NCBI GenBank assembly: GCA_000091205.1
Contig: AP006496.2
Source of the DNA: Cyanidioschyzon merolae
Lineage: Eukaryota
Strand: one strand, 5' to 3'
DNA: 64,000 bases
In this document: positions 2,189-39,900 of the stretch, one piece after another
How positions within the stretch are numbered: position 1 is the first letter of the stretch
Layout: the number at the start of each line of letters is the position of its first letter
The notes under the pieces: model-generated
The model's database searches: none
What the model saw: the letters and a program-made list of their open reading frames with translations, nothing else
What the model was told of the DNA's origin: nothing
Position numbers and translations under genes: made by a program

Positions 2189-2649
2189 AACACCAGCCAC
2201 AGTGACCTATACACACGCTAAACGCGCTCGTAACCGAGAGTTCAGTGTGGTGCAGCAGCGACAGTGGCAACGATGATCATCCCGAATGACTGGACTGGAG
2301 CTGGGAGCGGCGAAGCGCAGCGACGCCTCGAGTCGACGATGCGGGTGCGTTGAGGCCCTGCGGCTGGGGCTCACTCCAAAAAACAAAAAGACGACGACAC
2401 GTCCACACCGGGGGGTAGGCCTTAGTAGTGGGTGCTGGTCAGGCGTTCGGCACCGTTCCTAGATCGCTCAAGATCATTCTTTTATGGTCCTTATTTTCCA
2501 GGTGATGCTTTTCTGTGCGGTGCAATGCTGCCGATAAGTACGTGCTCTTCGTTACAGCTGGGCACAGACATTGATACCTCATCTGACTGGGATAGAGATC
2601 AGAGACGGTCACCGTAAACGGCAGTGCTTTCCTTGATATCGCTCACTGA

Positions 2650-3195
2650 GAGTCCCATAAACGCATCAAGAAAGCTTATCCTTTCAGTCGTATAGAGGTA
2701 AGCAAGCTCATTGAAAGCTCCATACAAGCTCCATAAAAGCTTATCCCTTCAATCGTATAGAGATAGGCAACCTCATTGAAAGCTCCTTCAAAGTTAATCC
2801 CTTCAATCGTATAGAGATAGGCAACCTCATTGAAAGCTCCGTAAAAGCTTATCCCTTCAATTGTATAGAGGTAAGCAAGCTCATTGAAAGCTCCATATAA
2901 GCTCCATAAAAGCTTATCCCTTCAATCGTATAGAGATAGGCAACCTCATTGAAAGCTCCTTCAAAGTTAATCCCTTCAATCGTATAGAGATAGGCAACCT
3001 CATTGAAAGCTCCGTAAAAGCTTATCCCTTCAATCTTATAGAGATTGGCAAGCTCATTGAAAGCTTATCCCTTCAGTCGTATAGAGGTAAGCAAGCTCAC
3101 TGAAAGCTTCTTCAAAGTTAATCCCTTCAATCGTATAGAGATAGGCAACCTCATTGAAAGCTCCATACAAGCTCCATAAAAGCTTATCCCTTTCG
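2650..3195. repeat. minisatellite of 58-61 bp units, about 9 copies, with a higher-order ~185-bp period (3 superunits), in the divergent SerRS/TIM50 intergenic region
   Basis: Direct reading shows the unit aagcttatcccttcaatcgtatagagataggcaacctcattgaaagctcc plus variable linkers (gtaa, ttcaaagtta, atacaagctccata). The block 2704-2893 recurs almost exactly at 2893-3082. Confidence 0.9.
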
Positions 3196-3351
3196 TTCTA
3201 CGATTTTTTTCGGCCGTCTGCGCGGGAGCGCTTCGATCCCTCCTCCACAGCAGCGACGTTCAAGGCAGGCTGCGAACGTCACCAGGTGCCTTGTTCAGAG
3301 CGTTCGCGGACCCACCCTTGTGCGGTCCACTTCGAGTGGCTTTCGGGGGAC

Positions 3352-4566
3352 ATGCTTGTAGATCGATACGCGGGTTTGCGTGCCCTACGGCCAATAGGGT
3401 CCGCGTTGCTCCGGCCTGGGCGCGTGCTCCGGTGTCTCACCTCGGGCAACGGTGGCCGCGCAGCTGGTGAAGCAGGGTCAAAGCCGACCTCGGGGCCGAT
3501 CCACCCAGAAGAGGGAGCAGCGGCAGCCTCGGATGGCGCGGCAGAGTCCAAGCGCCCACAGCACTCGCGATGGAGAGCTCTCTTTCGACCTGGACGTCTT
3601 CTCGGCTTCGTTGCGCTTGGCTCAGCCGCGACAGTGCTGACTTTCTGGGTCGTCGACCCCGAGGGAACGGTAGCACGTCTCGAGCGGCTACGGCACGAAT
3701 TGGAGTCGCGCATCCGCTATTACGTCGAGCCTAGTCGAGAAAAGCTCCTACCGGACCCAGTTGCTCCGTTTCCCGGCAGTCTGCCGCCACGAACGTTGGT
3801 CCTGGATCTCGACGAGACCCTTGTGCACTCAGACTGGACGCGATCGACGGGGTGGCGAACCTCAAAAAGGCCGGGCGTAGACGCCTTTCTGGCGTACATG
3901 GCGCAGTTCTACGAGATAGTGGTCTTCACGAGCGCCCTTCCCGGCTATGCGGATCCCATTCTAGACAGGATGGATCCAAACGGGTACATCACGCACCGCC
4001 TGTATAGGCATGAAACCAAATACCGCGACGGCCTGCACATGAAGGACCTTGCCAAGCTCAACCGCGATCTACGACGCACCATCATCATCGATAATGACCC
4101 TCGAGTATTCGCGCTGCAATCCGAGAACGGCATCGAAATCGCCCCGTGGAACGGCACTGACCCCGACGACAAGGAGTTGCTTCGTCTTACTGCATTCCTC
4201 GAATGGGTCGTTCGCAACGATGTCGCTGATGTACGACCGATCATCGCCACCGTTCGGAACTGTGATCGGACGACAAGCCGCAGCTTTGCCGAGCGGTTTG
4301 AGGCCTGTCGCCAGCAGGTCGAGTCCGTCCTTGCGTCACAGAAGCTCGCGGCAGTAGCCGGAGCGGCAACCGCGTCTTCAAGTTCCGCGGACGGTCATCT
4401 ATCGGGCAACGGTGTGCGCGCTCCTGTTCGAGGTCTGGGGATCTTCGCCATTCCACGCCGCGATCCCGCTGAGCAGTCAGCAACTACAACATCCGAGGCA
4501 TCTTCGCCAGCGGCTCCAGCGCAGCCGGTTCCTGATCAGAGTATCTGGACTCGTTTGCGACGATAG
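3352..4566 (+). CDS. mitochondrial import inner membrane translocase subunit TIM50 (FCP1/NIF phosphatase-like domain)
   Basis: Track ORF 3154..4566 begins with a TTG inside the minisatellite. The first ATG is residue 67 (MLVDRYAGLRALRP...), an Arg-rich presequence-like N-terminus followed by the TM segment LLGFVALGSAATVLTFWVV. The FCP1-homology motif LVLDLDETLVHSDW...IIIDNDPRVFALQSENGIEIAPW is typical of TIM50. Confidence 0.85.
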   Translation: MLVDRYAGLRALRPIGSALLRPGRVLRCLTSGNGGRAAGEAGSKPTSGPIHPEEGAAAASDGAAESKRPQHSRWRALFRPGRLLGFVALGSAATVLTFWVVDPEGTVARLERLRHELESRIRYYVEPSREKLLPDPVAPFPGSLPPRTLVLDLDETLVHSDWTRSTGWRTSKRPGVDAFLAYMAQFYEIVVFTSALPGYADPILDRMDPNGYITHRLYRHETKYRDGLHMKDLAKLNRDLRRTIIIDNDPRVFALQSENGIEIAPWNGTDPDDKELLRLTAFLEWVVRNDVADVRPIIATVRNCDRTTSRSFAERFEACRQQVESVLASQKLAAVAGAATASSSSADGHLSGNGVRAPVRGLGIFAIPRRDPAEQSATTTSEASSPAAPAQPVPDQSIWTRLRR

Positions 4567-5940
4567 AGCTTTCACGAACTTTCAGATCGGAAGCGAGTCA
4601 TGCGAAAAGTTTGCGCTTTGCGTCCCCGTATCGAGCTGGTGAGTTCGCTGCGGCACGCGACGCGTCTGTGTTTTTTCTCGGGGGCGCGGGGCAAGCGTCT
4701 AGGATTGTTTACACGAATAAGAGAATCCGTCGTTGTGCGATGGATATCAGCATCAAGGAGAGCAGCAGCGATCATTGCGGAATTCAGACGTCCACGTACC
4801 TCGAATCACCACTAGCCACACTCTTCATCGCGTATAATGGATCGTTCATACGGTCGCCCAGGTGCCGAGTGCGTTCTGTGAGCGTCCAGTGTGACGCCTT
4901 TAGAGCCGGTGCAGACGCCGCACGCAGATAGAGCGGCTTTTGCGTACCACTGAGGGCGTTGGCTCTAGAACTGTCATCTAGTCGAGTGCAGGTACAGCGC
5001 GCTCGTTTCTGCCGCGACGAGCGCGCTCCTTTCGGGAACTCTGTCTGCACGCTTGCAGGTGCTGCCCAGCCTACGGAAGCTAGATATCATGAAGGGACGA
5101 TTTCGCACTTGATCATCACGCTGGTGGATGAGATTTTGCGAGACTTTGCTTTCCAGCGGGCGTCGCTGTGCATCTGGGTCTGGCGCTGCCCCAAGACTTG
5201 ACGAGGCGTCACATATGGCCGTGGTAGCTCGCCGCTGGAGCATCCACGCAATAGGAGTATGCTAGGGAGATGGCGGTAAAGGCACACCTCAGCCCGAGGG
5301 GCATTGTCGAGAGGGCTCGTCCACATCCATGTCAGAGGACGTTCATGTTTGCCATTTCGTGTTTATGCCAGTGGCGGCAGAGATGCATGACTGGGCGAGT
5401 CTCTTCAAACGACAAGGTTCGCGTGGCCTGCCGTGTAACGACAAGCGCCTGATTACACGAGTCACCAGAGGTTCCGCACCTGGCGACTCCCAACACGCAC
5501 GTGCACGAGTGGTACACCCGCATCCTCCGGGCAAACAAAGCGCACAAACGCTCATTGTACCCGGGTGTGCAGGGGCAGCAGCCGCGGTCACACGCACTCG
5601 GTGCAGTGAAACAGCGCAGGTTTCCTGTACCTGAGCGATACACCCAGAGATGGCTCTTATCGTGCGAGACAAATATCTTACGAACTCCATGTGATCAGCA
5701 AAGTACGCAAGGAAACATGGGGCACCTAGGCTCCGGGCGAAGGCCACTCAGCCGCCTCAGCGGGTGTCTTTGCCGGGGCGTCTTCCCTCGACGGAACGCA
5801 GCGTCTATTCGCATTCACCGGCACGACACCCTATTGAAGAGAAGCGCTCGCGTAGGCTCCACGCCGATAACACTCGTGATAATGTCAACGGCTGCGCAGC
5901 TAATAGCCCAGTAATGTGTGCCGCACCTGGCTCCGCTGTG

Positions 5941-6615: not shown

Positions 6616-7109
6616 CCCAGTTCGGCAGACTTTCAGCACGCTGCGATGCCGAGTACACGTCGCTCGCAGGGCCTAGCAGGTCCGCTCCTTAAAGCCTACG
6701 CAGCGCACGCTCCAACACGCTGTTCCAGCGGACCTGTGGTTGTAATTCGGGCTTGCGGGGTGTGTCGCCCCGCTGCCGACGGTCGGTCCAGCTGCTTGTA
6801 GCACCCCCGCTACCTCCGTGGAAGCTGTTTTTCCTGCCAGCGGCGGGCGTTTGAATGAATCGTCGATAAAACACTGTCCCAGGCGCGTCGCAGTGCTCCC
6901 CAGCTGACGAGCACCCGAAGCCATTTCTGTTACCCGATGCGTCGCAGCGCTTTCGTATGGACCATCGGCGCGTTTGCTTCTAAGATGAGCATAGAGCGAA
7001 TAGATAGACTCACTCACACGCTTTCCGCAGGACTTATACGAGCGGGTGCCTGCTATGGGCTTTCACTCTCATCTTGTTCACTTCGAGTCTGAGAGGCTGG
7101 CCCGGAAAG

Positions 7110-8340
7110 TTGGCTCAAACCAGCTCCTTGGGTCTTCTACTGAGCACTGTATGTCGTCTAATGTTCATAGCAGCGTTGAAGTCTGGGATCACGAACTGGA
7201 TGCGTTTATTGTCTCTTATTAAACTCACCAATGCAAGGATCCCTCGAAATGCTGCCCTCGGTGCCATTTGGTGCTCCATCACCTCTCCAAGGTTTCCTAT
7301 TCCCAAAGTGCTCCGTTGCCTTCTCTCCATCTCGACGTTATGAAGGATACACCCCAGCACATCCATTAGATTTTTTAAACACATTTCTTTATGCCCCTAG
7401 GTGACGACCTTATAGGAGCGCGTAGGACTTGCGGAAGAAAGACGTCATGTGTCTCTGTGTACCACCGTGTTCTGAACGCTTCAGTGATTCGCCTAGTGGC
7501 GCGATCTTTACTTTTCACAATAGGAAACACTTCTTCAATGTGGTTGAACCGGAAGCGTACTGACGAATGAAATGCAGCCCTACTCCGGTAGAATTGGGCA
7601 AGGCTTCAATGCGAGGGGAATGGTGAAATTCCAAAAAGTCGAACAGAAGAACACAGCCAGACGTCAGGGAATCGTCTTCAAAGATTCTACGATGTGAAAA
7701 CTGTTGTATGAGCGTTCTCTGGAGTCGAAACTGAGGCCGCAAAAGAAATCCACTGCAGCTGGAGTAGAGAAATTCTTATGTATTTTCGATATCGATTGTA
7801 TATCCAACGGGCGCCCCTCATCGCGAATACTCATATCCACTGTGACGGTTCTGTGTGGAGCAAATCTCGTGGAATGAAAAAAACAACGTTCTTGTGGCTC
7901 ATAGCCGGCGCGATGTTTCAGGGACTGTGTTCTAGTCGCCATTTCGTTCGGACATGGCTGTGAACGATCTAGGACATTTTATGTGACTGTATGCCACTGG
8001 TTTCAGGACCATACGAAAAAGCTGTAGACAAAAACAGTCACCGGTGATGGCTGCTATCGTCGCTTTTTGTTCCCGCAAAGTCGGCAACGGGTCGTGTTCT
8101 ATCACTGACCTCATGCACGCGTCGAGAATATCCGTTTCTTTTCGCGGAGTTCATCTAATTCTTTCTCTAGTGTTCCTCGACCGTTTGAGTGTTGTTCCAT
8201 GACTGACATCAAGAATCAATACAGATCTCCTTCAAATATCCAGTATATAATATATCCTACATGAAATTCGACTTCGATATATACAGTATATTACAACGTG
8301 ATTCCCATCTCTTGCTATACATCGCAGATCGTGTCGAGTA
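7110..8340 (-). mobile_element. decayed, frameshifted copy of a transposon family carrying a Fanzor/TnpB-like gene (relic copy 1)
   Basis: Minus-strand fragment VIPDFNAAMNIRRHTVLSRRPKELV (7115..7384) matches the RuvC-III region [21 protein letters not shown] of the intact gene at 23223..24395. Upstream (7470-7560, minus strand) the fragment FRFNHIEEVFPIVKSKDRATRRITEAF resembles the Tc1/mariner C-terminal motif DLNPIENVWSILK. About 70% nucleotide identity to 31870..33190 in the same order and orientation. Confidence 0.65.
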
Positions 8341-8577
8341 ACCATGGGTTGAAAGCCTAAAAGATCGCGGATCGCAATCCCACCACCACCGTTCTGCTGT
8401 CTGGATCGCCGAGTCGCGAACGCTGTGGAGCCACGCTGTTCAGGGACACGTGGCAGATATCGAATGCTGCTGCTCCTCTAGCTCACGCATAGGTTGAGGC
8501 TATTTCGTAGCGCGGGCTGCCCCCAGGCAGTTGTGCTTTTCCCACTACCAGCAACATTGGAAAGTGATCGACGCGAG

Positions 8578-12308: not shown

Positions 12309-12442
12309 TACGCTATGTCGACCGTTTGCAAGGTTGGCTATATGAAGCGCTCACGCTGTACCTTGATCTGCAGTTAAACTGCGGTCGACCGTTTGCAAGG
12401 CTGGCTACGGGAAGCGCTCGCGCTCTACCTTGATCTGCAGTT
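12309..12442. repeat. 67-bp tandem repeat x2
   Basis: gtcgaccgtttgcaagg(t/c)tggcta...ccttgatctgcagttaaactg is read twice. Confidence 0.8.
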
Positions 12443-12811
12443 AAACTGTATTCATAAATCACTCTCACTGGAAGATGCGCTGCGAGCCGTTTGACAGCGA
12501 CGGCTTCCACTAGCATCGACCGATGCTGTGGACGTCCCATGGCCGGCGGAATCAGGTGTCTAAAAGTGACACACAAGGGGCGCTGGTAGCCAGCGTTCTC
12601 GGGTTCACAAGTGCTCCCGATATCGCAGCGTGCATGCTGCAGTGAAGCACGCTGCTCTTCCTGGTGTGTGTGCCGCTCGCGTCGGAGACCGTGCGATAGG
12701 CGCAAGGTCGTCAGCAAATCCCACAGGAATGCCGCTTTCTGAGCGTCGCGCGGATATGCCACTTGTTTAGGTGTGGCCCCGGCTTAAAAGGCGCTACCCA
12801 TCTATTTTATA

Positions 12812-13015
12812 GTGTATAGGATAATCGGGGCTAAGATAGGATCTCCAAGAATGCATTTGAAACGCGGTATCCGTCTCAATGGTGTAGGATAATTCAAGCT
12901 AAGCTGGGATCCCCAGGTGCGCGTTTGAAACGCGGTATCCGTCTTAATGGTGTAGGACAATCGAAGCTATACTAGGATCCCCGACTACGCGCTTCAACCG
13001 CACCACCAGTGCCGT
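12812..13015. repeat. ~68-bp degenerate tandem repeat x3
   Basis: gtgtaggataat...ggatcc...tttgaaacgcggtatccgtct(c/t)aatg is read three times. Confidence 0.75.
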
Positions 13016-13911: not shown

Positions 13912-15438
13912 GACAACTGGGGCTCGCGACCCAGCGATTCACCTCACAGAGGCATCGACGATACAATCCCGCCGGCGTTCAGCGACCTCTCCTCAACAGT
14001 CATTTGCACTCGGACTCTCAATTTCTCACTCCGATCCATGATAAAAAAGTCCCGCGTGGGGTCCGGTTAACCTGCGAGAACTGCCCCTCTTTTCGAATTC
14101 TACCACATGGTGCTTCCACCAGCGGTTTACACGCCGCCGCAGCAGCAGCAGCAGACAGCGCCTTGCACTAGAGCTTCTTCGGCATCGCTCGAAAATCGAC
14201 TGCCGCGTTCGCGACGCTTGCTGCGGTGTGTGCTCAAGCTTGTAGATGGCGCCGCACGGCCCAGATGAGCCAGTAGTCGTCAAGAGCGAAATGCGATGCC
14301 TTTTTCAGTGCTTGGGGGACATACGTGTGGCACGATAATGGCTCCCGACGCTCTGCCGTGTTCGAGTCGCGTATGCAAACAGATCTTCGCCCCGTCTGCT
14401 GCCGGCAAAATTGTTATTCGTTCCCGCAGTGCCTCCAACTGCTCCCAGTGCAAGTCTTTTCGACTCGTGTACAGTGCTTGGGAACGCAGGCCCTGTGCTC
14501 GTCCCAAGAGCCGTTCGGATACGCTAGCAAATCATCTGCGACTGCTTGGGATACTACGTGGGGAAGTATCGTTCTGGTTTTTTCATTCGTACCCAGAGAG
14601 CGTTTTCGCAGGGTCGCTTGTGATCTAAACCGCTCGTGGATGATGTTGGGCGCAGGTTCGCACGCCAGCGCACTGTGTGTGTGTATGTGAAGATTGAGTC
14701 ATAGTCGTCAGAGCGCCCAGCGGAGCGCGTGCTTTCGGTGAAACAGATCGCTTCAAGAATTGGACGCCGTCTCGAGGCCTGCCTGGTGCCTGCTCCACGT
14801 CATCCGAAAGAAACCTTCACATACGTGTTCAGCTCGAATGCTGTATTCGTAGCGTCCTCCTTATCCAATGTCATAATTAGGCCGAAAGACTGATACGTCC
14901 GCCATCAAGTTCTGTTGCCCAGCAAAAGACGTTCCAGGTGGCAGAGCAGAATCGCTTGAGCAGAGCTTTATCGGCTCCAGTCACTGCACGCTGCAAACAG
15001 TATCGATTACGAAGTAGATACACTAAGTAAAATCGAATAATGGAACACCTGTATCGTCTACAAGTTGCCTAGGAAGACCGATTCCGGTGTATCTATACGG
15101 CGCTCCAGCATCACTGGATTGCTTAACCGCACTACACCAGTGCCTTGCTTCATGCTTGGATCCAAACGTTCCCTCCTGGCCGCTGTTTCTTCATCGCATG
15201 GCTTCCGATTTTCAGCACAATGCCCGCAATGACTACGACACGACTTTTTCGATACTTCGCTTAACACAGAGTCTTGGGCGCTGCAGAAGCACGAGACATA
15301 TTCCGGATGTTGGTCGAGGCGTTGAACTCCCGGTGGAGAAAGTGCTTTTGCCCATGACTGCTGGGAAATGCGCACCGCAGTAAACCTGTCACCATAGACT
15401 ACCTTGCCAGCTGACGTGCGGTCAGCTTCACGTCCACC

Positions 15439-16347
15439 ATGTCGTACATTCGGACCTGTTCCTCTCTGTTTCTCAAGCTGCATCATCGTGCACCTCAGCT
15501 CGTGGTGCTTTCATGTCGTCCTGAACTTGTCCAAAGGAATCCTGCACAATCGGCTCCTGCATTCGTTTTACGCTCCGAGCGAAGGAGCATGAGTCCAGCC
15601 TTTGTGTTGAACAGCACGTTCAGCGTCATAGGCCATTACCAAACGACACGACGTATCGGTTATTTCCTTTTTCAACACAGTGAGCAAATTGGTGAATGCA
15701 CGCATCTTGCGAACGTGCAACCCGAAGCGCTGACGACACCAGTACGGTATCATGAACTCCTGCTAAATCTCATTCTCATATGCAATTTTGACGCTCGCAT
15801 ACTCCCTGAATCAAGTGATGAAAGTACGCCCTCTGCACGATACGGCGCCCAGAGCGTCGGCACAGGTCCGGACGGCATTCCTCAATCTGTTGGAATGTCC
15901 CGCGGCGTCTATGATGCCCAGCTGCAGATGATACTGAACGCTGGAAACCATGAGCAGCTTCCTGTGATATCCGTTCGGATCTTTGGATCCTTCATTATGG
16001 TTTGGAGGTACGTCGACGCTCATGATATTGCTGGACCTTGGATGCACGCCCACCACGAAGAGTTTCTTATCACCTACCGTGAACAGTTGGATACGACTCG
16101 CATTGTTCGACTCATGATTCGGTTTCCGATGAATTCGATGGAGATTAAGCCTTCGTTGGTCTGCAACGTTACTGTATGCTTCGTTCCGTTTTCGCCCGGT
16201 CTAGGAGAAATCTTGAGCGAGCTCTACCAATACATTTCGCGGACTCGTTTGAACTCTTCACATTTGCTTCCGGGTGTCCGCCCTAACCCGCTGAGGAGGC
16301 CACACAACATTGTAGACACTCATCTATGGCGATGTAATGAGCATTAA
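15439..16347 (+). CDS. hypothetical protein, no recognisable domain
   Basis: A 302-aa ATG-initiated ORF lying between recognised genes. It has no motif I can name and only moderate codon bias, so it may instead be a decayed element. Confidence 0.25.
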   Translation: MSYIRTCSSLFLKLHHRAPQLVVLSCRPELVQRNPAQSAPAFVLRSERRSMSPAFVLNSTFSVIGHYQTTRRIGYFLFQHSEQIGECTHLANVQPEALTTPVRYHELLLNLILICNFDARILPESSDESTPSARYGAQSVGTGPDGIPQSVGMSRGVYDAQLQMILNAGNHEQLPVISVRIFGSFIMVWRYVDAHDIAGPWMHAHHEEFLITYREQLDTTRIVRLMIRFPMNSMEIKPSLVCNVTVCFVPFSPGLGEILSELYQYISRTRLNSSHLLPGVRPNPLRRPHNIVDTHLWRCNEH

Positions 16348-19300
16348 TGTCACACATGGAAACCACATCCAAAATAAACACCAGAGGAGACGAGGACTCT
16401 CGAATTCGGGAAGGGAGTCGACCGCGCTCTGGATGGCTCTGCTCAGGAACACGTAGTGCTTCAAGATGGAATGTAGGTAGGTAGATATCACGTCTCAATT
16501 ATACATCGGATACGACGTCCGCTGGTCCGAGGCAGAGAGCAACACGATGAGCTTGGACAGCATGAAGCGTCTCTTGCTCTCGTTAACGCATCTCTTTGAA
16601 CTTCGCGACAAACTCCATCTCGTCCGTAGCCAGCAAGCCACTTGCCTACGTCCGCACCCGAAGAATCCCTTCATGTAATCCTCACTGTTCTGAGCCTCAA
16701 TAGTGACGCTATAATGACCACAGCGTGCGCTTCATGAAGCCCCGGTCATTGGCTTGAACATGGTTTTGCTTGTTGAGGTTGTTTTGAAACTTTCTGGCAA
16801 CTGCGGCGTACATGTTCCGATGGATGATGTGTAACGGCGAGGCGTCGGGGTAGTTTTGGAAGCGTGTGTACAAATCTCTAATCCTATGAACAAGCCGAAT
16901 GGCATCTTCTATCCGAAGCATCCGTTGCTGCAAGGAGGTTTGACAGAAGATTTCCTGAGGAATGCGGACAACTGGCAGCCCAGCGTCCGCAGCGCCCCTG
17001 AGCAGTTGCTTGGCGAGGTGTGTCAAGGAGAGGTAAGCATGGCGAGCTTCCGCCGAGGTGGAAGCTGCGCGAACCTCAACGGCCAGCTGCCTCATCCTTT
17101 TTGGAAGACTCACCAGCTTGATACGTTTTCTGTGGAAAGCCTCGACAACGAGTGCAGACTGATCTATCCGCTACCACAATTTTTTCTTCTTGTCCCTCCT
17201 CGCCCACTTTTCGGAAGGATCCTTCCCCTCTTCGTCTAGTGGTTTCCTCTCCCTCTCCACAAAGCGGTGTTGGTACCGATGCGGTCGATATACTTCATAT
17301 CTGTTTTTTCTCTGGGCTGAAACAGTCTCGGCGATAGATGGCAATGAAGCTCATCTATTCTGCGTGAGTGTCGATTTCTCCTGAAGCACCTCTTTGCCAC
17401 CGTATCTGCGGGCAGCGCGCTCGCGGTGCGGGGCACGCTTTCCCCTCCCTGATGCGCTCGAGCGGAGGAGCAAACCATCAGCTCAGAGCTGGTTACCATA
17501 GAAAAACACTCGTCCGAGAACGGTCGAGCGAACGACTTCTCGACTGATCTGTGAGCATGAAAGCGGAGTCTGCCGACAGAAAATTTACCTTCAACTGTTG
17601 TGGACCGAGGAGTTCAGGCTAGCACGAAGAACAGCTCACTACCTATTGCTGCAGCATACACCCAGACCGCCTTGGATCTCTACAAAGCGACGTTGTCTAA
17701 GTGCATAACAAAAGAATACGGGATGATGAAAGCACGTGGCGTGCTCCAGCGAACGATGAGATGTAGAAAGCCCGTCTCTTTGGGGATACTAAATTGAACA
17801 CACATCTGAGTCGCCGCTGGGGCTGATCTTGTCGACATTTGCGCTAGAATCTTCTGTAAGAGTAGCTTTGGCCCCATCTTCGCGTACCCGTATGCAAAGG
17901 TGTACCATTTCATCCGAGTGAAGTCGCATTGAGTGAGACGAGCTCCCTTGCTTCCAGTACAGAGTGTTCGATTTCCAGCACGAAATGGAGAGTATACTGC
18001 ACAACAAGCTATCCTCTCTCAGAGACGCACGTTTCTCTGTTGTTTATCTACCCTTCGTCACCTTTCGCATCTAAGGTCCCAAAAATTCACATCCCGTAGC
18101 TTCTCTGGAAGCTTTTCTGAGAGAAATACGCAGTGGAACAGACTGACGAAGAGATTAACCTGTCCATAGAGTTTGTTACGTTCTGTTCTAGGCACACGAC
18201 GTATAATGCTTGTTCTCCGAGAAGGATGGTTCATCCACCTGCTGCCCTGTGAGTGACCGACGTGCTCCATTAAGGCCGCCTTTCGTAAGCTCTCCGTGAG
18301 CATAAAGAGTCTTTTCGCGACTTTTGTCCGATCTACATGATACATTCCTTGTATTGGATAAGTGCAAGAAAAACAAACAAAATCGGAAAGGGCGTGCTGT
18401 TACAGGTACGCCAGAATTTACTGCCAAAGTGCACATGCTGTTTCAGTTCGTTTTCGCCCCGGCGCGCGAGCATATCGATCTTGCAACTGTCCAACGATGT
18501 AGATGCACTCATTTTCGACGCGAAGTGCAAAGAAAATGCGTACTGTTCGGAACAAGCCAACCTACAGTGAACGTAAAGCCAACGAGGGAGCCGCTCTGAA
18601 TCACATCGTGCAGCCTCGGCGTGAAAGAAACGAGAGGGGCGACGTCCCGATTCCGTATCTTGTGCATACGATCGAACTACTCCGACGCGTGGTATACGGC
18701 TCTTCATGCTCTGTCAGTGGCCTTCGTGCAGGAGAACGAACAATCTTGAAAGAGATTAGATCGAAGTATTCTCCGGAATAGGCCCTAAACAAATCGGTAC
18801 GCAGTCTATCCGCAGCATCTATCGAGCAACGTGTGCTGTACCTGATCATCCTCTGGTGCGGCTTGTGCTGGAGATGCGCAGCACTCTCGCGGCGTCCGCC
18901 ATAAAGTTCTGCTTTGAGCGCTTCTAGATATATCCTCGACAATGGAGCACCATGCCCACCGCGCGAGTCTCAATGGCACGTGAATGCCTCTCAGCCGTAC
19001 TGAATGTCCACTGCTGCCTACCACACAAATCCACTAACCAACTTGCGAGCTAAGGCCATAGGTGAAGGCCCGCGCTTCACTGGCATGTAATGCCGTGCCG
19101 AGGCAATCATCAAAAGGGGCGCCACTCGCGCGTTCTGCCCCGCTTCAGTGCGCTCCACCGCGCCGAAAAGCAACTCAGCGAGTACACGGTCAACCGATTG
19201 CGGAGATCTCTTCGTCGGCACAAGCCAGTGCTCGTGAGGCGGAGTCTCAATTTTAGGGCCCCATTTGGGCCCATAAAACGGCGAACTCTAGATATTGGAA

Positions 19301-23167: not shown

Positions 23168-23222
23168 GATAGCGTCGAAGCGTTCACCAAACGCCGTTCT
23201 AAAGTAGAACGACGCCGACCGT

Positions 23223-24395
23223 TTACAGTAGAGGAGAGAAACCCGCCCTAGACAAGAAGTCTCCAACTGATGTGCAGACGCCTCCCGTCTTTTTCGACGG
23301 GTCACCCACTACTGCTTCCAACTTCTTCTCATATAGGTCGACTTTGAGAGGTTGTCCAATAAAGTTCATTGTTGTTGACTCTGGAGGTCTCTTCTCCAGC
23401 ACCGCACATCTCCTTACATTGATGGCGGCGTTTAAGTCCCGGTTCACGAATTCCATACGTTTCGTCCCGTTGATTGTACTTACTAATGGAAGGAGTCCAC
23501 GAACTTTCGCCCTCCTTTCCATTTGCTCCTCTGCCAGCTGTCCGTACTTTGCTATTTCCTCGGGGCTCCGTTGGCACTTTTCCATCGCCACTCTCTGAAG
23601 TGTGCAACCCAGCTCGTGGTGTGTGTACGATGTTCGAAACTCATCTATAGGTATCGTGACGAAACGCCTTGCGCACTCCTTGTACGCTCTCGTCGTTGGA
23701 GCTGGTGTACACCCTTTTTGGGTCTTCCATCGCCTTGCTCCGTACGCTACTACGAGCCCTTGACGGTCGTCCTCCTTCAAGGCGCTCAACTGGTTGAAAG
23801 AATTCGCGAACGCCCGCCGCTTACCACAATACAAATTCATTCGCAAACGAGCCCACCGGGACTTGGTATACTCATCCCACAGTGCATCCCAATGAGCAAC
23901 GCGAAATTCTATGAACTCCCGAAGAGCTTTAAAGTCCGCTCCGCGGCTCGTCACCTCGCTCAAAGTTTCCAGGCGATCCTTCATTCCTGCATTCCATGTC
24001 TCGATTTTCTTCCTTGCATTCACTATATCGGATTCTCGATAGTATATTGCTCTCGAGAATCTCAACAGATGCACGTCTTTCTGACGTAAGTTGCCGTCAG
24101 TACCATCTTCCTCACGCTTCGGTGCTACGATGGTTATGATATTGGTATTCCCAGGGTCCGCGCCAACGACAAAGTCGCTATCCCGCACTTTCTGCGTCGC
24201 AGGTTCCGCCTCCTTCTTCTCTTCATGCTTCGCCGCGTAAACGATAACGTGGTTATCCTGCACTTTCTGCGTCGCAGGATCCGCCGTCTTCTTATCTTCA
24301 TCCTTCCTCACGGACGAAGCCGAAGGCGGGACTGAACGATCTGCCTTCAACCGTCGATAGTGTACACACATGGCTACTCCATCGGGTTCGATCAT
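23223..24395 (-). CDS. TnpB/Fanzor-like RuvC-fold (OMEGA-type) nuclease, intact 390-aa copy
   Basis: Track ORF 23223..24422 starts at GTG; the first ATG is residue 10 (24393-24395). Motifs (track numbering): [16 protein letters not shown] at 84-99 is RuvC-I-like GxDxGxx[23 protein letters not shown] at 245-266 matches the TnpB bridge L.YKAE..G..V..V.P.YTSQ preceding the zinc finger. The finger itself is degenerate (HH...C...C instead of CxxC...CxxC). [16 protein letters not shown] at 326-341 is the RuvC-III hallmark D.NAA.NI. A candidate RuvC-II acidic cluster is LKEDD (215-219). Confidence 0.7.
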
Positions 24396-24477
24396 CCCAG
24401 TGAAAAACTTTTGCTTGATCACTTTGAGAGGTTTGAAATCGAATATATTCTTCCAGTACGTCTTCCGGTTCTTACCG

Positions 24478-25326
24478 GTTAACTTGCGTCAGAAAGACGT
24501 GCATCTGTTGAGATTCTCGAGAGCGATATACTATCGAGAATCCGATATAGTGAATGCAAGGAAGAAAATCGAGACATGGAATGCAGGAATGAAGGATCGC
24601 CTGGAAACTTTGAGCGAGGTGACGAGCCGCGGAGCGGACTTTAAAGCTCTTCGGGAGTTCATAGAATTTCGCGTTGCTCATTGGGATGCACTGTGGGATG
24701 AGTATACCAAGTCCCGGTGGGCTCGTTTGCGAATGAATTTGTATTGTGGTAAGCGGCGGGCGTTCGCGAATTCTTTCAACCAGTTGAGCGCCTTGAAGGA
24801 GGACGACCGTCAAGGGCTCGTAGTAGCGTACGGAGCAGGGCACTGGAAGACCCAAAAAGGGTGTACACCAGCTCCAACGACGAGAGCGTACAAGGAGTGC
24901 GCAAGGCGTTTCGTCACGATACCTATAGATGAGTTTCGAACATCGTACACACACCACGAGCTGGGTTGCACACTTCAGAGAGTGGCGATGGAAAAGTGCC
25001 AACGGAGCCCCGAGGAAATAGCAAAGTACGGACAGCTGGCAGAGGAGCAAATGGAAAGGAGGGCGAAAGTTCGTGGACTCCTTCCATTAGTAAGTACAAT
25101 CAACGGGACGAAACGTATGGAATTCGTGAACCGGGACTTAAACGCCGCCATCAATGTAAGGAGATGTGCGGTGCTGGAGAAGAGACCTCCAGAGTCAACA
25201 ACAATGAACTTTATTGGACAACCTCTCAAAGTCGACCTATATGAGAAGAAGTTGGAAGCAGTAGTGGGTGGCCGGTCCAAAAAGACGGGGAGGCGTCTGC
25301 ACGTCAGTTGGAGACTTTTTGTCTAG
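24478..25326 (+). pseudogene. 5'-truncated inverted copy of the Fanzor/TnpB-like gene
   Basis: It starts at the codon matching residue 111 ([10 protein letters not shown]) of the intact copy and lacks the RuvC-I region. There are point differences (GARRW vs GAGHW) and an indel altering the C-terminal 20 residues. The apparent N-terminus MATPSGS... (24370-24477) is antisense of the intact copy's 5' end. Confidence 0.75.
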
Positions 25327-25634
25327 GGCGGGTTTCTCGCCACTACTGTAAACGGTCGGCGTCGTCCGACTTTAGAACGGCGTTCGGTGTCGGTGGCCCT
25401 TTTACGAGGTTTCTTCCGACGCAACCTCCAGCTTTTGAACAGTTGACCGCGAACCGACACCCGCATCCGTTTTTTTACACAACACAACCTGAGCAAAAAG
25501 TTTGCAGAGAGTCTTACACGTTACGAAAGCGAAATATGTTGGTCCGAGCTACTTGTGCCCTGAAATCCTCGGATAATAAGCAAATACACCACGCATGGAA
25601 AAGTTGAATCTGCGTCTATTCGAACGCACTTTGG

Positions 25635-31649: not shown

Positions 31650-33190
31650 CCTAAGCGGACTTGAGCGGCAGCGCCTCGCTTCTATGCAGGGCTTGTAGCA
31701 GGCAAAACGCGCCAATACTTATTTTGTAAAACGAAAAATGCTTCGTGGACATGCAGGATAAACTAATACCGATGCGCAGACGCCTAAGAGCGTTTTTGGA
31801 CCAGTCGCCTGCTATCGGCTTCAGTTTCTCCTTGCACACTTCGAGCATCAGAGCCTGCCTCACAAAGTTGTATCGAGTCGGCTCCTGTGGTTTCATCTTC
31901 AGCACCGCACATCTTCTCTTATTGATGGCGGCGAAGTATCAGTTTGCGATCTCTTTGCATTCATTGACGCTGCTTGAGCTCACCGATGGAGGGATTCCAA
32001 GAACACTTGCCGTCTTTGCCACTGTACTCTCGTCATCGTCCTGTTGGGCAAACACTGTTCCTGACCCATTTCCCCTCCTCTGCTTCTTTATTTGATCTTC
32101 TCCGTTCGGCTTTAGTCGACAAGAGGATTTTTTCGTTCTTTTCCGGCAGTCGGCGATGTCGGGCCTCGAAAATCCTCGGCGTCCATGTCCATACCTTCTC
32201 CTTCGGTTTCTTATTTCTTCAAATCAACGCACTTGCTTATGCCCTTAGATGAAGACATTCCCTGCGGGAGAAGGGCTTGCGGACGGCAGACATGGTATGC
32301 CCCACTGTGTCGCCGTGTGCTGAACGCTTCAGCGATTCGCCCAGTGCAGCGATTATTGCGTTTCACGATAGAAAACACTCCTTCGATGGCATTGAAGCAC
32401 GTAGAGCACCGAGGAAGGAAAAGCAGCTCTATCCCTATAGAACCGGCAAAATCCCGAACGCAAGGGGAATGGTGAAATGTCACCTGACTTCAGGGAGAAG
32501 CCTTCAGTGATTTGGCAAAGCGAGTGTGATTGTGTGAGCCTTCTCTACGAGAAAGACTGCGGCCGCCAAAAGAATCCGCTGCATCTAGAATCGATGATGA
32601 TTTCCGAGTTATCTTCGAGTTCGATCGGATATTCAACGGGCTCGCTGCTCCTGGACTATCCGAGCACGCTCCGACCGTATCATCCAAAGGAAGTCGCATC
32701 GATTGAAGAAACAAACCGACGTCTCTCTGCTGCATATCGATACTACCTATCCAGGCACGTTGTTGTAGTTACGATTTCGGTGGAAGATGGCCGTGCGTGG
32801 AACTGGACCCCATTTTTGCGACTGTATCCCAGTATTTTTAGGACAACAGGAACAAGCTATCGAGAAACAGAGACGCCCATGGTGGCTACTTTAGTCGCTT
32901 TCGCTTTCAGTAAAGTCATCGACGAGTCATTTTCTACCATTGGCGGCAAGCACGCAATAAGAATACCCGTTTTTGGCGCGGAGCGCATATGCTTCTTTCT
33001 TTCCGTGTTCCTATATCATCTCTGTATTGTTGCATGACTGATCTGAAGGAGAAAAGTAGTCCTCCTTGAGCTGTTCAGTGCAGAATATATCCTACATGCA
33101 ATTCGTCTAGGATATATACAGTACATTCCAGCATGATTTCGATCCCATCCTATACATCGCAGCTGGGTTGGAGCGTAAATGAGTTGAGAC
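31650..33190 (-). mobile_element. decayed copy 2 of the Fanzor-carrying transposon family
   Basis: Minus-strand fragments YFAAINKRRCAVLKMKPQEPTRYNFVRQALMLEVCKEKLKPIAGDWSKN match [48 protein letters not shown] of the intact gene. ELLFLPRCSTCFNAIEGVFSIVKR (32211..32483, minus strand) resembles Tc1/mariner LPPYSPDLNPIENVWSILKR. The copy is colinear with 7110..8340. Confidence 0.65.
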
Positions 33191-33689
33191 ACTTTAGGAG
33201 GCAGTACTGACGCGCGCTTCGGTCCCTGCACTTCCCTATTTATCTAGGCTTGTTCCAGATATACAGCCTCGACACTCAACGTGCACCAGTGAGAACTTAC
33301 GGATGCGTACTTATTTTCATGATTCTCCGGCATAGTTTCGGAGTCACTTTTTCGAGGCCTTACTGCTAGAACGCTTTGCGACGCCCTCGAACAAAGATGC
33401 GTGAATTAAGCGATATCGTTAATCAGTAGGTACTTACCAGATTGTACCCCCTTCTTTCCTTACGTGTAGCACCCTCAGATGACGCATGCTCCAAGTTCAC
33501 AGTCGTTCTATTGTAAGGCAACTCGTTGGCGCAACAATGCGCGCTGCTGAATTGAAGAGGAGGAGAAATTCTCCACTTCGTCCATGGTCGAGCTCATTGC
33601 ATGCATATGCTTAGAGTTCACTGAAATATTCGTGTGAAATAATGAATCCCGTTTGAGACGCAAATCCTTTCCTCATTGCAACCATAGAC

Positions 33690-33960
33690 AAAACGGCATT
33701 CCACAATAGCGCGACGCCTCTCAACGGATATGTTCTCGGATGCTTCCGTTTCTTTTCTTTGCGTGGTAAAGGGTTCTGGACTCCGGCTTGAGTCATCGTA
33801 GCGATCGCTATTCGTGCAGAGTGCGTTTCCGCTGTATTCGAAATGTGCGTAGGGAGGAGTCGACGTTTCTTGACTTGATCTCGAGTCTAGATTTTCCTCA
33901 TGGTACGTTTTTCACCATGGACAGCATCGCGTCCCATAAACTCTCTTCTGTTCGAAAAAC
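33690..33960. repeat. dispersed repeat family R2 (second copy at 56300..56520)
   Basis: gg(g/t)tctggact(gg/cc)gcttgagtcatc(t/g)tagcgat...gagtgcgt and about 60 bp of flanking sequence align by eye at roughly 65-70% identity. Confidence 0.5.
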
Positions 33961-34394
33961 AGCAGAGAACGGAGGGTGAGTCATCATATTCAACCCCATT
34001 TATTCTGCATCTATCAAACCGATAGAGGACGTCATCGGGGCCGTGAAATGAAGCAGATGGAGAGATTTCGAATGGGACAACTGCACCTAGTTATGCTGCG
34101 GACGGATTACCCGGCGAGGGGATCGTCCAGAAGAAGCCCACGATCGAAGAGCACGACACCAGGCGTGAATACCAAGGGGCTCATCGCGAGGAGCCCTCTT
34201 TACCCGCCGAGGGCCTGTACCAAGCGATGAAGCAAGCATTCACGCGTCACGTGACGGTCCTCAGAGGAGGAGAAGGTCCAAATGATATATAGGAACACCT
34301 TAGCAGGTTCAAGGGCGCCCGTACGCGGGACGCACCGAGCCTGCACACAGAGAAGATGAAAATAGGAAGCGAAACGAAGATCGCATCTTGGGCC

Positions 34395-37695: not shown

Positions 37696-37885
37696 GCTTG
37701 CCGATGGTCGACACATGAATCCTGCATTGCTTGTATCTGTTAAAGTACCCGAGGCGAGGAACAAGCCCTGGCGACGCGTCTGTGTCTGGGCTTGCGGATG
37801 GTCGACACGTGAATCATGCATTGCTTGTACCTGTTGAAGTACCCGAGGCGAGGAACAAGCCCTGGCGACGCATTTGTGTCTAGGT
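37606..37885. repeat. 94-bp tandem repeat x3 spanning the asparaginase stop codon
   Basis: ccgatggtcgac(g/a)c(a)tg(g/a)atca...gttgaggtacccgaagcgaggaacaagccctggcgacgcgtctgtgtctaggcttg is read three times. The stop TAG is tag in units 1 and 3 and tgg in unit 2. Confidence 0.9.
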
Positions 37886-39439: not shown

Positions 39440-39900
39440 GCGTTCGGGATCGCACGTGGAATAGAAATGCCGTGTAGATGCTTCGATAATAGGCGATACT
39501 TTGGAGGATCCGTTGTCGATGCATCGATAATGAGCGATGCTTTGAAGGATGCCGTGTAGGTGCTTCGATAATAGGCGATACTTTGGAGGATCCGTTGTCG
39601 ATGCATCGATAATGAGCGATGCTTTGAAGGATGCCGTGTAGGTGCTTCGATAATAGGCGATACTTTGGAGGATCCGTTGTCGATGCATCGATTATGAGCG
39701 ATGCTTTGAAGGATGCAGTATAGATGCTTCGATAATAGGCGATACTTTGGAGGATCCGTTGTCGATGCATCGATAATGAGCGATGCTTTGAAGGATGCAG
39801 TATAGATGCTTCGATAATAGGCGATACTTTGGAGGATCCGTTGTCGATGCATCGATAATGAGCGATGCTTTGAAGGATGCTGGAATCTGGAGGGAAACAG
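39440..39900. repeat. 82-bp tandem repeat (two ~41-bp subrepeats) x~5.5 immediately upstream of the phosphatidyltransferase ATG
   Basis: atgcttcgataataggcgatactttggaggatccgttgtcg plus atgcatcgataatgagcgatgctttgaaggatgccgtgtag is reiterated. The block is stop-free in all three minus-strand frames, which produces the artefactual 241/188/116-aa ORFs. Confidence 0.9.

What the first reader, a model, noticed from the sequence alone, without database searches (positions are those of the whole stretch)
7110..8340. Decayed non-autonomous relatives of the Fanzor element share an internal deletion, implying a Tc1/mariner-like carrier that propagated after decay
Both relics (7110-8340 and 31650-33190) retain the Fanzor C-terminus: NAA(M/I)N(I/K)RR..RP..E plus, in copy 2, the following ~40 residues. 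In both, only ~300 bp upstream of that sits a fragment resembling the extreme C-terminus of Tc1/mariner/IS630 DDE transposases (LPxxSxx(L/F)NxIExV(W/F)SI(L/V)K). In copy 2 the catalytic Asp is replaced by Cys.

The same ~1-kb Fanzor body is missing from both. They are therefore copies of an already-deleted derivative, arising by non-autonomous transposition or segmental duplication, rather than two independent decays.

This fits the reported association of Fanzor1 genes with Tc1/mariner-type transposons.
Basis: partly seen in the sequence, partly recalled or inferred. Interest (0 to 1): 0.6.

Follow-up and report, generated by a model that had tools for sequence, protein, structure and literature searches.

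The report
Decayed mariner-type transposons that lost Fanzor
Both intervals are dead copies of a Tc1/mariner-type jumping gene of the red alga Cyanidioschyzon merolae that once carried a Fanzor (RNA-guided nuclease) gene and lost most of it, by two different internal deletions rather than one shared deletion; this is ordinary transposon decay.

Summary
The two intervals are colinear over about 1.4 kb. Each carries a Fanzor C-terminal remnant downstream of a DDE_3 (Tc1/IS630-type) transposase remnant.

Each relic holds the whole transposase pseudogene, about 311 codons, plus a left end homologous to the inverted repeats of intact relatives. True spans are 6945-8359 and 31718-33195, both on the minus strand.

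Thirteen further diverged copies were found in metagenomes. A 15-copy consensus restores an intact DD34E transposase (Pfam DDE_3, 72 bits).

Intact carriers exist in other metagenomes: TIR, transposase, full Fanzor, TIR, about 3.1 kb. A decayed full-length carrier also lies in the window at 15276-18345.

The "same deletion" claim fails. Relic 1 joins the spacer just before the Fanzor start codon to Fanzor codon 611. Relic 2 keeps the start codon and about 63 codons, then resumes near codon 636. Each junction type is shared by seven copies, so propagation after deletion is right, but as two derivatives.

These derivatives carried a complete transposase, so they were probably autonomous. The "Asp to Cys" residue is not catalytic.

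The host is C. merolae 10D, and its Fanzor family is the published CMe-1A. CMe-1A looks like the reciprocal, transposase-deleted derivative. This is a new member of a known kind, of moderate interest.

The parts
8328..8359 (-). Relic 1: left end of the element (TAGGCTTTCAACCC...), homologous to the terminal inverted repeat of intact carriers
   Evidence: The family's 5' homology boundary lies here in all copies. The consensus left end aligns 19/30 (counted by eye) with the 30-nt TIR of L042 reported. TA precedes this end in 6 of 10 copies, although relic 1 itself has TT.
7378..8291 (-). Relic 1: transposase pseudogene (DDE_3, DD34E type), with frameshifts and stops; D147 is lost, D220 and E254 are kept
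   Evidence: tblastn of the 311-aa consensus transposase covers residues 1-105, 137-210, 211-258 and 251-307, E 3e-59. Pfam DDE_3 on the raw fragment gives E 1.2e-3.
7375..7377 (-). Relic 1: stop codon (TAA) in the transposase reading frame, a few bases upstream of the subfamily-1 junction at about 7362
   Evidence: Frame translation, junction alignment and coordinates.
7058..7362 (-). Relic 1: Fanzor remnant, corresponding to codons ~611-715 of CMe-1 (ELGC...NAAMNIRR...); the RuvC-III Asp is kept, RuvC-I and RuvC-II are deleted
   Evidence: tblastn with P0001 residues 362-462 gives 47.5% identity, E 1.4e-21. CMe-1A 2737-3020 aligns with 7362-7082 at 70%, E 3.5e-29.
6945..7057 (-). Relic 1: Fanzor 3' tail, 3' UTR and degenerate right end; the exact terminus is uncertain
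   Evidence: 3'-end alignment of 11 composite copies and 6 CMe-1A copies, with coordinates.
33160..33195 (-). Relic 2: left end of the element (AAGTGTCTCAACTC...), preceded by TA
32214..33126 (-). Relic 2: transposase pseudogene covering residues 1-311 of the consensus, with one frameshift, three stops and an 8-codon deletion that removes D220; D147 and E254 are kept
   Evidence: tblastn of the consensus transposase gives 62-70% identity, E 3e-101. Pfam DDE_3 gives E 5e-6. phmmer of 32214-32489 finds 58 relatives, including intact DDE_3 proteins of about 300 aa.
32211..32213 (-). Relic 2: natural transposase stop codon (TAA after ...KCVDLKK)
   Evidence: The stop is conserved in 5 of 7 subfamily-2 copies.
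32040..32192 (-). Relic 2: Fanzor start codon (ATG at 32192) and remnants of its first ~50-63 codons; this segment is absent from relic 1
   Evidence: CMe-1A 869-969 aligns with 32234-32129 at 75.7%, E 1.9e-13. The subfamily-2 consensus versus CMe-1A 869-969 gives 82%, E 7e-26. The same segment matches the 5' region of solo Fanzor loci L001, L002, L021 and L023.
31771..32039 (-). Relic 2: Fanzor remnant from about codon 636 to the end (the junction is near 32040); the RuvC-III Asp is lost
   Evidence: tblastn with P0001 residues 422-477 gives E 2e-9. CMe-1A 2833-3092 aligns with 32021-31768 at 68%, E 3e-17. Junction alignment.
31718..31770 (-). Relic 2: 3' UTR and degenerate right end (…CATTTTTCGTTTTACAAAATAAG)
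15276..18345 (-). Related feature: decayed full-length carrier of a more distant lineage, with a transposase remnant at 18345-17500 followed by a near full-length Fanzor remnant at 16819-15276
   Evidence: tblastn with P0143 residues 1-286 gives E 3e-12. tblastn with P0017 residues 22-576 gives E values from 1e-26 to 0.006.
23185..25389 (.).
   Evidence: Self-BLAST gives 98% identity over 909 bp in inverted orientation. The copies are 87-88% identical to the CMe-1A consensus.

Best explanation
Both intervals are dead copies of a cut-and-paste DNA transposon of the Tc1/mariner/IS630 superfamily (DD34E transposase, Pfam DDE_3) in Cyanidioschyzon merolae.

**The ancestor.** It was a carrier of about 3.3 kb. 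Its order was: left inverted repeat, transposase of about 311 aa, a spacer of about 20 bp, a Fanzor1 gene of about 734 aa, a short 3' UTR, and a right inverted repeat.

**The deletions.** Internal deletions, of the kind DNA transposons commonly suffer, removed most of the Fanzor gene and left the transposase gene whole. At least two such derivatives arose from essentially the same master sequence.
- Subfamily 1 (relic 1) joins the spacer just upstream of the Fanzor ATG to Fanzor codon 611.
- Subfamily 2 (relic 2) keeps the ATG and about 63 codons, then resumes near codon 636.

**Spread and decay.** Both derivatives then spread by transposition into TA sites in one burst. All copies afterwards decayed neutrally, to about 17% divergence from the consensus. 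Neither relic can now make a transposase or a nuclease.

**Shown:** the anatomy, the two junction types, the multi-copy dispersal, the intact consensus ORF, and the existence of intact carriers elsewhere.

**Inferred:** the deletion mechanism, that the derivatives mobilised themselves, and the order of events.
For: **The two relics**
- They are colinear.
- Their flanks are unrelated.

**The wider family**
- There are 15 distinct copies (13 from metagenomes plus the two relics), 65-71% identical pairwise.
- Their phylogeny is star-like, with pairwise p of 0.29-0.36.
- The consensus gives one frame with a 311-aa ORF.
- That ORF scores DDE_3 at 72 bits, E 6e-20. The motifs are SDETVG, LLDNVAFHHS and NPIEG, with 34 residues between the second Asp and the Glu.

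**The two junction types**
- Junctions split 7 versus 7.
- Mapped on CMe-1A, subfamily 1 resumes at 2737. Subfamily 2 keeps 869-969 and resumes at about 2810-2840.
- No diagnostic substitutions separate the subfamilies outside the junction: 0 observed against 0.8 in random partitions.

**Ends and target site**
- TA precedes the left end in 6 of 10 copies.

**Intact carriers**
- L042 has 30-nt TIRs at 90% complementarity, at 634-663 and 3712-3741. Its transposase is at 707-1591 and its Fanzor at 1649-3508.
- L050, L058 and L065 have TIRs of 31-34 nt.
- The consensus transposase is 41% identical to the L042 transposase (E 3.5e-68). CMe-1 is 31% identical to the L042 Fanzor (E 1.7e-96).
- A decayed full-length carrier lies in the window itself.

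**Host**
- A window protein is 100% identical to a C. merolae 10D protein.
Against: - No intact full-length carrier of this particular lineage was recovered from C. merolae or from the related metagenomes. The ancestor is reconstructed from its derivatives.
- The right terminus and its target-site duplication could not be resolved.
- The inverted repeats of the relic family are degenerate. They are recognised mainly by homology to the TIRs of intact relatives.
- A shared first deletion followed by two secondary deletions (three events instead of two) cannot be excluded. The two right breakpoints lie only about 75 bp apart.
- I could not scan the C. merolae genome itself for a census.
Confidence: 0.8

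Rival explanations
1. One reading: both relics descend from one already-deleted, non-autonomous derivative, so they share the same internal deletion.
For: - Both lack the body of Fanzor and are colinear elsewhere.
- The right breakpoints are only about 75 bp apart.
- No substitutions distinguish the two subfamilies outside the junction.
Against: - The junctions differ on both sides.
  - Relic 2 and six other copies keep the Fanzor ATG plus about 63 codons, which relic 1 and its six relatives lack.
  - Relic 1's group keeps codons 611-636, which relic 2's group lacks.
- Neither form can be derived from the other by a further simple deletion.
- The consensus transposase ORF is complete, so "non-autonomous" is not indicated.
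Confidence: 0.05
2. There was one first deletion, from about codon 63 to codon 611. Two secondary deletions next to the junction then gave the two subfamilies.
For: - The right breakpoints are close together: 2737 versus about 2810 of 3169.
- The masters were identical outside the junction.
Against: - This needs three events instead of two.
- None of the 15 copies has the intermediate structure.
Confidence: 0.12
3. The transposase and the Fanzor C-terminus form a functional fusion gene, that is, a transposase that captured a Fanzor domain.
For: Two metagenomic copies are called as single ORFs reading from the DDE domain into the Fanzor C-terminus: P0130 in L006 and P0127 in L007/L014.
Against: - Only 2 of 7 subfamily-1 copies are in frame, which is about the 1-in-3 chance expectation.
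- The spacer lengths are 20, 22, 24, 24, 25, 25 and 32 nt (counted from the alignment).
- The transposase's TAA stop is conserved in 5 of 7 subfamily-2 copies.
- The retained Fanzor part lacks RuvC-I and RuvC-II.
Confidence: 0.03
4. A Tc1-like element inserted into a Fanzor (CMe-1A) copy, and the nested composite was later duplicated. There was no carrier and no deletion.
For: Nested insertions are common. CMe-1A copies are abundant in this genome (PMC3627910).
Against: - No inverted repeat lies between the transposase stop and the Fanzor sequence.
- In subfamily 2 the transposase stop is followed after about 20 bp by the Fanzor start codon. This is the arrangement of intact carriers, where L042 has 57 bp.
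- CMe-1A itself retains the carrier's left-end motif and the last transposase codons upstream of its ATG.
- No Fanzor N-terminal half lies on the other side of the transposase.
Confidence: 0.02

Closest known systems
Fanzor1-carrying Mariner/Tc1 elements (PUl-1, PUl-2 and PGv-1 of Bao & Jurka 2013, PMC3627910; "Mariner/Tc1 autonomous" associations in Jiang et al. 2023, PMC10530073)
   Same: - A DDE transposase gene is followed by a Fanzor1 gene between inverted repeats, with TA target sites.
- The consensus transposase of the relic family is detectably homologous to the PUl-1 Mariner transposase (32% over 113 aa, E 2e-10).
- PUl-4 in that paper is a Fanzor-only element with Mariner TIRs, a parallel to the transposase-deleted form.
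   Different: The relics are the opposite kind of derivative: the transposase is kept and Fanzor is deleted. They belong to a different transposase lineage, closest to the roughly 300-aa DDE_3 proteins of uncultured freshwater or brine organisms (41% identity to L042).
CMe-1A, the Fanzor1 family of Cyanidioschyzon merolae (Bao & Jurka 2013)
   Same: - It has the same host.
- The Fanzor remnants of the relics are homologous to its 3' 355-433 bp (68-70% for the relics, 77-80% consensus to consensus).
- The window's Fanzor ORFs are CMe-1A copies, 87-88% identical to the consensus.
- CMe-1A carries the same left-end motif (26/32) and the last transposase codons upstream of its start codon.
   Different: - CMe-1A has no transposase gene and was published as lacking TIRs and unclassified.
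- Its copies begin about 145 bp, or 785 bp with TE-N2_CMe, upstream of the left-end motif.
- The relics have the transposase and lack about 85% of Fanzor.
Internally deleted derivatives of cut-and-paste DNA transposons (for example deleted P, Ac/Ds and mariner elements)
   Same: They keep the ends and lose internal sequence. Several independent deletion derivatives arise from one master, and they amplify after the deletion.
   Different: Here the deletions spare the transposase and remove the passenger gene, so the derivatives need not have been non-autonomous.

Membership tests
Tc1/mariner/IS630 superfamily DNA transposon | DDE/D catalytic domain of the Tc1/IS630 type (Pfam DDE_3) | tested here: met
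   - The 15-copy consensus scores 72 bits, E 6e-20, against a gathering score of 28.6.
- The raw relic fragments give E 5e-6 and E 1.2e-3, just below the gathering score.
- Relatives found by phmmer score 80-95 bits.
Tc1/mariner/IS630 superfamily DNA transposon | Catalytic triad with fixed spacing (here D, D, then 34 residues, then E) | tested here: met
   The consensus has D147 (SDETVG), D220 (LLDNVAFHHS) and E254 (NPIEG). Each relic has lost one Asp.
Tc1/mariner/IS630 superfamily DNA transposon | N-terminal helix-turn-helix DNA-binding region | tested here: inconclusive
   - The consensus gives HTH_Tnp_Tc3_2 at E 8e-4, HTH_33 at E 3e-3 and HTH_Tnp_IS630 at E 0.03. All are below the gathering scores.
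- The intact L042 transposase gives HTH_Tnp_Tc3_2 at 30.6 bits against a cut-off of 31.5.
Tc1/mariner/IS630 superfamily DNA transposon | Terminal inverted repeats | tested here: inconclusive
   - Intact relatives have clear TIRs of 30-34 nt at 71-91% complementarity.
- In the relic family the left end aligns 19/30 with the L042 TIR.
- The right end keeps only a core (ACATTTTT.G...CACTG), and its terminus is unresolved.
Tc1/mariner/IS630 superfamily DNA transposon | TA target-site duplication | tested here: inconclusive
   - TA precedes the left end in 6 of 10 copies, and the other four are each one substitution away.
- The right flank is not resolved.
- Intact carriers end in TA...TA.
Fanzor1 (eukaryotic TnpB homologue) | Homology to established Fanzor1 proteins | tested here: met
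   - The window's Fanzor copies are 87-88% identical to the published CMe-1A consensus (PMC3627910 supplement).
- The relic remnants match CMe-1A at E 3.5e-29 and E 3e-17.
- A family profile hits Spizellomyces punctatus Fanzor (PDB 8GKH) as its only PDB match, E 0.006.
- The L050 Fanzor passes Pfam PF07282 at 26.8 bits against a cut-off of 26.3.
Fanzor1 (eukaryotic TnpB homologue) | Complete split RuvC domain (D...E...D) and zinc-finger region | tested here: not met
   - In the relics only the last RuvC segment is left: DFNAAMN in relic 1, and YFAAIN with the Asp lost in relic 2.
- RuvC-I and RuvC-II lie in the deleted part.
- The relics are Fanzor remnants, not Fanzor genes.
Fanzor1 (eukaryotic TnpB homologue) | Associated guide (omega) RNA at the 3' end of the gene | not tested
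   No RNA analysis was done. The retained 355-433 bp would be the expected location.

The most novel reading that the evidence does not exclude
The Cyanidioschyzon Fanzor elements and the relics may be reciprocal halves of one kind of Tc1/IS630-type carrier. The published CMe-1A family has about 150 copies and was left unclassified, with "no TIRs". On this reading it is the transposase-deleted derivative, because it still holds the carrier's left-end motif and the last transposase codons just upstream of its start codon. The relic family is the Fanzor-deleted derivative. Both Fanzor-deleted lineages kept the same 355-433 bp Fanzor 3' module. That could mean the module is needed in cis, either as subterminal transposase sites or as the guide-RNA gene. 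If so, transposase-only and Fanzor-only elements could have served each other in trans.
Probability: 0.35. Interest if true: 0.5.

Novelty: new member of a known kind. Interest (0 to 1): 0.35.

Why it matters
- It gives a concrete, reconstructable example of how a Fanzor-carrying transposon falls apart. The passenger nuclease gene was lost at least twice while the transposase stayed whole, and these Fanzor-less forms still amplified. This argues that Fanzor was dispensable for the spread of this carrier.
- It offers a classification for CMe-1A, the long-known but unclassified Fanzor1 family of C. merolae, as a derivative of a Tc1/IS630-type carrier.
- It points to intact carriers with clean inverted repeats in environmental contigs, which could be used experimentally.
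- For genome annotation, the practical message is that these stretches are transposon pseudogenes, not genes.

Tried and rejected
- **Pfam on raw three-frame translations of both relics.** Only the DDE_3 C-terminal part was seen. The N-terminal two thirds became visible only through the multi-copy consensus.
- **Word-indexed protein search with the two relic fragments.** It found only P0121, the 98.9%-identical orthologue of relic 1 in a metagenome.
- **Inverted-repeat search within the relics.** It found no terminal repeats. The ends were recognised only by comparison with intact carriers.
- **tblastx of the transposase part against the rest of the window.** It found nothing. The more distant DDE_3 relics appeared only with intact protein queries.
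- **Exact look-up of a window protein to name the host.** It failed. A homology search then gave C. merolae 10D.
- **Single-sequence PDB search with the Fanzor ORF.** It gave nothing meaningful. A family profile was needed.
- **Inverted repeats around the full-length relic at 15276-18345.** None were convincing.
- **Fusion-protein idea.** Rejected on frame statistics and on the conserved stop codon.
- **My early assignment of the first catalytic Asp to "IIIDSRCSGF".** This was wrong and was corrected by the consensus alignment.
Full report
**1. What is at the coordinates**

The window is nuclear DNA of the red alga Cyanidioschyzon merolae. The protein encoded at 36766-37692 is 100% identical to an annotated protein of strain 10D.

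A self-comparison of the window aligns 7378-8327 with 32226-33162 at 66% identity over 966 bp, E 1e-63. A global alignment shows the two units are colinear from end to end. The DNA on either side is unrelated. Both units read on the minus strand.

The Fanzor similarity is real.
- The window's own 399-aa Fanzor ORF (23223-24422, minus) matches 7441-7058 (E 2e-22) and 31932-31795 (E 1.5e-8).
- The published CMe-1A consensus matches 7362-7082 (70%, E 3.5e-29) and 32021-31768 (68%, E 3e-17).

The transposase similarity is also real.
- The raw fragments hit Pfam DDE_3 at E 5e-6 and E 1.2e-3, just below the curated cut-off.
- An exhaustive phmmer search with the 92-aa fragment of relic 2 found 58 relatives.
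- Among them are intact proteins of about 300 aa that score 80-95 bits on DDE_3 and carry helix-turn-helix regions.

**2. The relics belong to a multi-copy family, and the whole transposase gene is there**

Two of the phmmer hits, P0127 and P0130, are metagenomic ORFs that run from the DDE domain straight into the Fanzor C-terminus. They therefore cross the same junction as the relics.

Fetching their contigs, plus a pattern scan of metagenome contigs, gave 13 further distinct copies. All are 65-71% identical to each other and to the two relics. Each lies in a different genomic context. One locus (L004/L005) is the 98.9%-identical orthologue of relic 1.

The copies form a star phylogeny, with pairwise p of 0.29-0.36.

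A majority consensus of the 15 copies restores a single reading frame with a 311-aa protein, MYRIDRRRIACRIYS...KCVHFKK.
- It scores 72 bits, E 6e-20, on DDE_3. It also gives weak Tc3/IS630-type helix-turn-helix hits.
- Its catalytic residues are D147, D220 and E254. There are 34 residues between the last two, so it is a DD34E transposase.

Mapped back on the window:
- Relic 2 covers residues 1-311 (33126-32214, 62-70% identity).
- Relic 1 covers residues 1-105 and 137-307 (8291-7378).

So each relic contains a complete transposase pseudogene, not only its extreme C-terminus. Relic 1 has lost D147. Relic 2 has lost D220 through an 8-codon deletion. Both keep E254.

**3. Intact carriers exist**

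The same scan returned contigs from unrelated freshwater and brine metagenomes. In these, a full DDE_3 ORF is followed on the same strand by a full-length Fanzor homologue.

L042 is an example:

| Feature | Coordinates in L042 |
|---|---|
| Left TIR (30 nt, 90% complementary) | 634-663 |
| Transposase (294 aa) | 707-1591 |
| Fanzor (619 aa) | 1649-3508 |
| Right TIR | 3712-3741 |

- The repeats begin with TA.
- L050, L058 and L065 have TIRs of 31-34 nt.
- The C. merolae consensus transposase is 41% identical to that of L042 (E 3.5e-68).
- CMe-1 is 31% identical to the L042 Fanzor over 684 aa (E 1.7e-96).
- The transposase is also related to the Mariner transposase of PUl-1, a published Fanzor1 carrier (E 2e-10).

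The Fanzor identity of the family is supported in three ways.
- The published classification of CMe-1 (PMC3627910).
- A family profile whose only PDB match is Spizellomyces Fanzor, 8GKH, E 0.006.
- A PF07282 hit above the cut-off in L050.

The window itself also holds a decayed full-length carrier of a more distant lineage. Its transposase remnant lies at 18345-17500 and its Fanzor remnant at 16819-15276.

**4. The ends**

In all copies homology starts at TAGTCTTTCAACTCAATTCTGTTCCACC. This is 8359 in relic 1 and about 33193-33195 in relic 2.
- This sequence aligns 19/30 with the L042 TIR.
- A TA precedes it in 6 of 10 copies. The other four are each one substitution away. That fraction is what about 17% decay per site would leave.

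At the 3' side homology continues about 100 bp past the Fanzor stop. It reaches ...GGGACATTTTTCGTTTCACTG, which contains the inverted core of the TIR. The exact terminus and its flanking dinucleotide could not be fixed.

The relics therefore span about 6945-8359 and 31718-33195.

**5. The deletions are not the same**

Aligning the junction region of all copies splits them cleanly, seven against seven. Positions below are on CMe-1A, whose ATG is at 906 and whose ORF has 734 codons.

| | Subfamily 1 | Subfamily 2 |
|---|---|---|
| Copies | relic 1, L006, L014, L020, L025, L028, L033 | relic 2, L008, L009, L021, L032, L034, L062 |
| Left side of the junction | spacer a few bases before the Fanzor start codon | keeps the transposase TAA stop, a ~20-bp spacer, the Fanzor ATG and about 63 codons |
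| Resumes at | codon 611 (H-ELGC) | about codon 636 |
| Deleted | about 899-2737 | about 1095-2810 |
| Evidence | | E 1.9e-13 for relic 2, E 7e-26 for the subfamily consensus |

Neither form can be turned into the other by a further deletion.

Outside the junction there is not one substitution that distinguishes the two subfamilies. Zero were observed, against 0.8 on average for random partitions. Both therefore arose from essentially the same master, and both amplified in the same burst.

Two independent deletions is the most economical reading. A shared first deletion followed by two secondary ones is possible, because the right breakpoints are only about 75 bp apart. However, no intermediate copy was seen.

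The single ORFs across the junction in two copies are accidental. Only 2 of 7 subfamily-1 copies are in frame, and the transposase stop is conserved in subfamily 2.

**6. How it worked**

Established knowledge of Tc1/mariner elements says that a DDE transposase binds the inverted repeats, excises the element and inserts it at TA.

The consensus ORF is complete and each junction type is found at seven unrelated sites. So the Fanzor-deleted derivatives most likely moved by this mechanism, using their own transposase. After the burst all copies decayed. No relative with an intact ORF closer than 50% identity was found among 1.84 billion representative proteins.

The deletion mechanism itself, for example interrupted repair after excision, is inference.

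**7. Relation to what is known**

Fanzor1 genes inside Mariner/Tc1 elements are established (PMC3627910; PMC10530073). So are Fanzor-only elements with Mariner ends.

C. merolae's Fanzor family CMe-1A was described in 2013 with about 150 copies, each about 80% identical to a 3.2-kb consensus. It was reported to have no TIRs and was left unclassified.
- The window's Fanzor ORFs are CMe-1A copies.
- CMe-1A positions 786-817 match the left end of the relic family: 26/32, alignment score 34 against 15.2 ± 2.1 for shuffles.
- CMe-1A positions 869-897 match the last transposase codons and the stop: score 40 against 15.0 ± 2.2.

CMe-1A therefore looks like the reciprocal, transposase-deleted derivative of a related carrier. 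The shared Fanzor 3' part is about 77-80% identical between the consensuses.

One thing does not fit neatly. CMe-1A copies share another 145 bp upstream of that left-end motif, or 785 bp including TE-N2_CMe. So it is unclear from which end they were mobilised.

I found no paper in the searchable library that describes the transposase-bearing family or this link. Repbase could not be checked.

**8. Verdict**

- It is wrong in three particulars: the deletion is not shared, the derivatives were probably not non-autonomous, and no catalytic Asp-to-Cys change exists.
- This is a new, well-documented member of a known kind, of moderate interest to transposon and Fanzor specialists.

Noticed in passing
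window 15276-18345 (minus strand): Decayed full-length carrier of a more distant lineage. A DDE_3 transposase remnant lies at 18345-17500 (P0143 residues 1-286, 26% identity, E 3e-12). It is followed by a near full-length Fanzor remnant at 16819-15276 (P0017 residues 22-576, 25-33% identity, with many stops). No terminal repeats were found.
   Followed up: partly
window 23185-25389: Two 5'-truncated CMe-1A Fanzor copies lie head to head. The arms are 98% identical over 909 bp, with a 388-bp unique centre that holds the first 110 codons of one copy. The "intact" 399-aa ORF itself lacks about 335 N-terminal codons of the 734-aa CMe-1.
   Followed up: partly
window 33529-33936, 43202-43972, 48758-49435, 55794-56560: Another old repeat family, 64-67% identical pairwise. 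It shows weak DDE_3 transposase similarity (P0166 residues 86-228 at 43668-43228; P0151 residues 207-268 at 33863-34048). These are probably further Tc1/IS630-type relics without a detectable Fanzor part.
   Followed up: no
window 4864-4968: A short match (72%, E 1e-9) to positions 153-255 of CMe-1A, which is the part published as the separate element TE-N2_CMe.
   Followed up: no
CMe-1A consensus positions 640-905; loci L001 5020-5670, L002 3410-3660, L021 777-1030, L023 934-1190: CMe-1A carries the carrier's left-end motif (786-817) and the last transposase codons plus the stop (869-897) upstream of its Fanzor ATG. However, its copies share a further ~145 bp upstream of that motif, so its real 5' end and its mode of mobilisation are unclear.
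   Followed up: partly
L042, L050, L058, L065 (also L038, L041, L047-L052, L054, L059, L061, L064): Apparently intact elements of about 3.0-3.2 kb in freshwater and brine metagenome contigs. They have 30-34-nt inverted repeats starting TACAC..., a 294-297-aa DDE_3 transposase, and a 587-619-aa Fanzor 57 bp downstream. Their host organisms are unknown.
   Followed up: partly
L021 1443-3351 and 5074-6192; L034 with L023: In two metagenomic loci a composite (Fanzor-deleted) copy lies within 1-2 kb of a full-length CMe-1A-type Fanzor copy.
   Followed up: no
L043, L044, L045, L053: One composite copy stops inside the transposase gene, at about consensus position 870. It continues with TE-N2_CMe-like sequence that also lies upstream of CMe-1A in L001 and L021.
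   Followed up: no
window 2641-3192, 37605-37888, 39467-39880, 12317-12448, 12814-13001: Tandem repeats seen in the self-comparison, with units of about 54-170 bp at 78-98% identity. At least the 39467-39880 array lies inside a long ORF with a repetitive translation.
   Followed up: no
L004, L005, L007 (proteins P0121, P0127): Metagenome gene calls over these decayed copies do not translate to the recorded protein under the standard code. The recorded proteins have Trp where the closely related window copy (P0121) or the contig DNA (P0127) has TGA. The callers apparently used a TGA=Trp code, which created spurious ORFs over pseudogenes.
   Followed up: no
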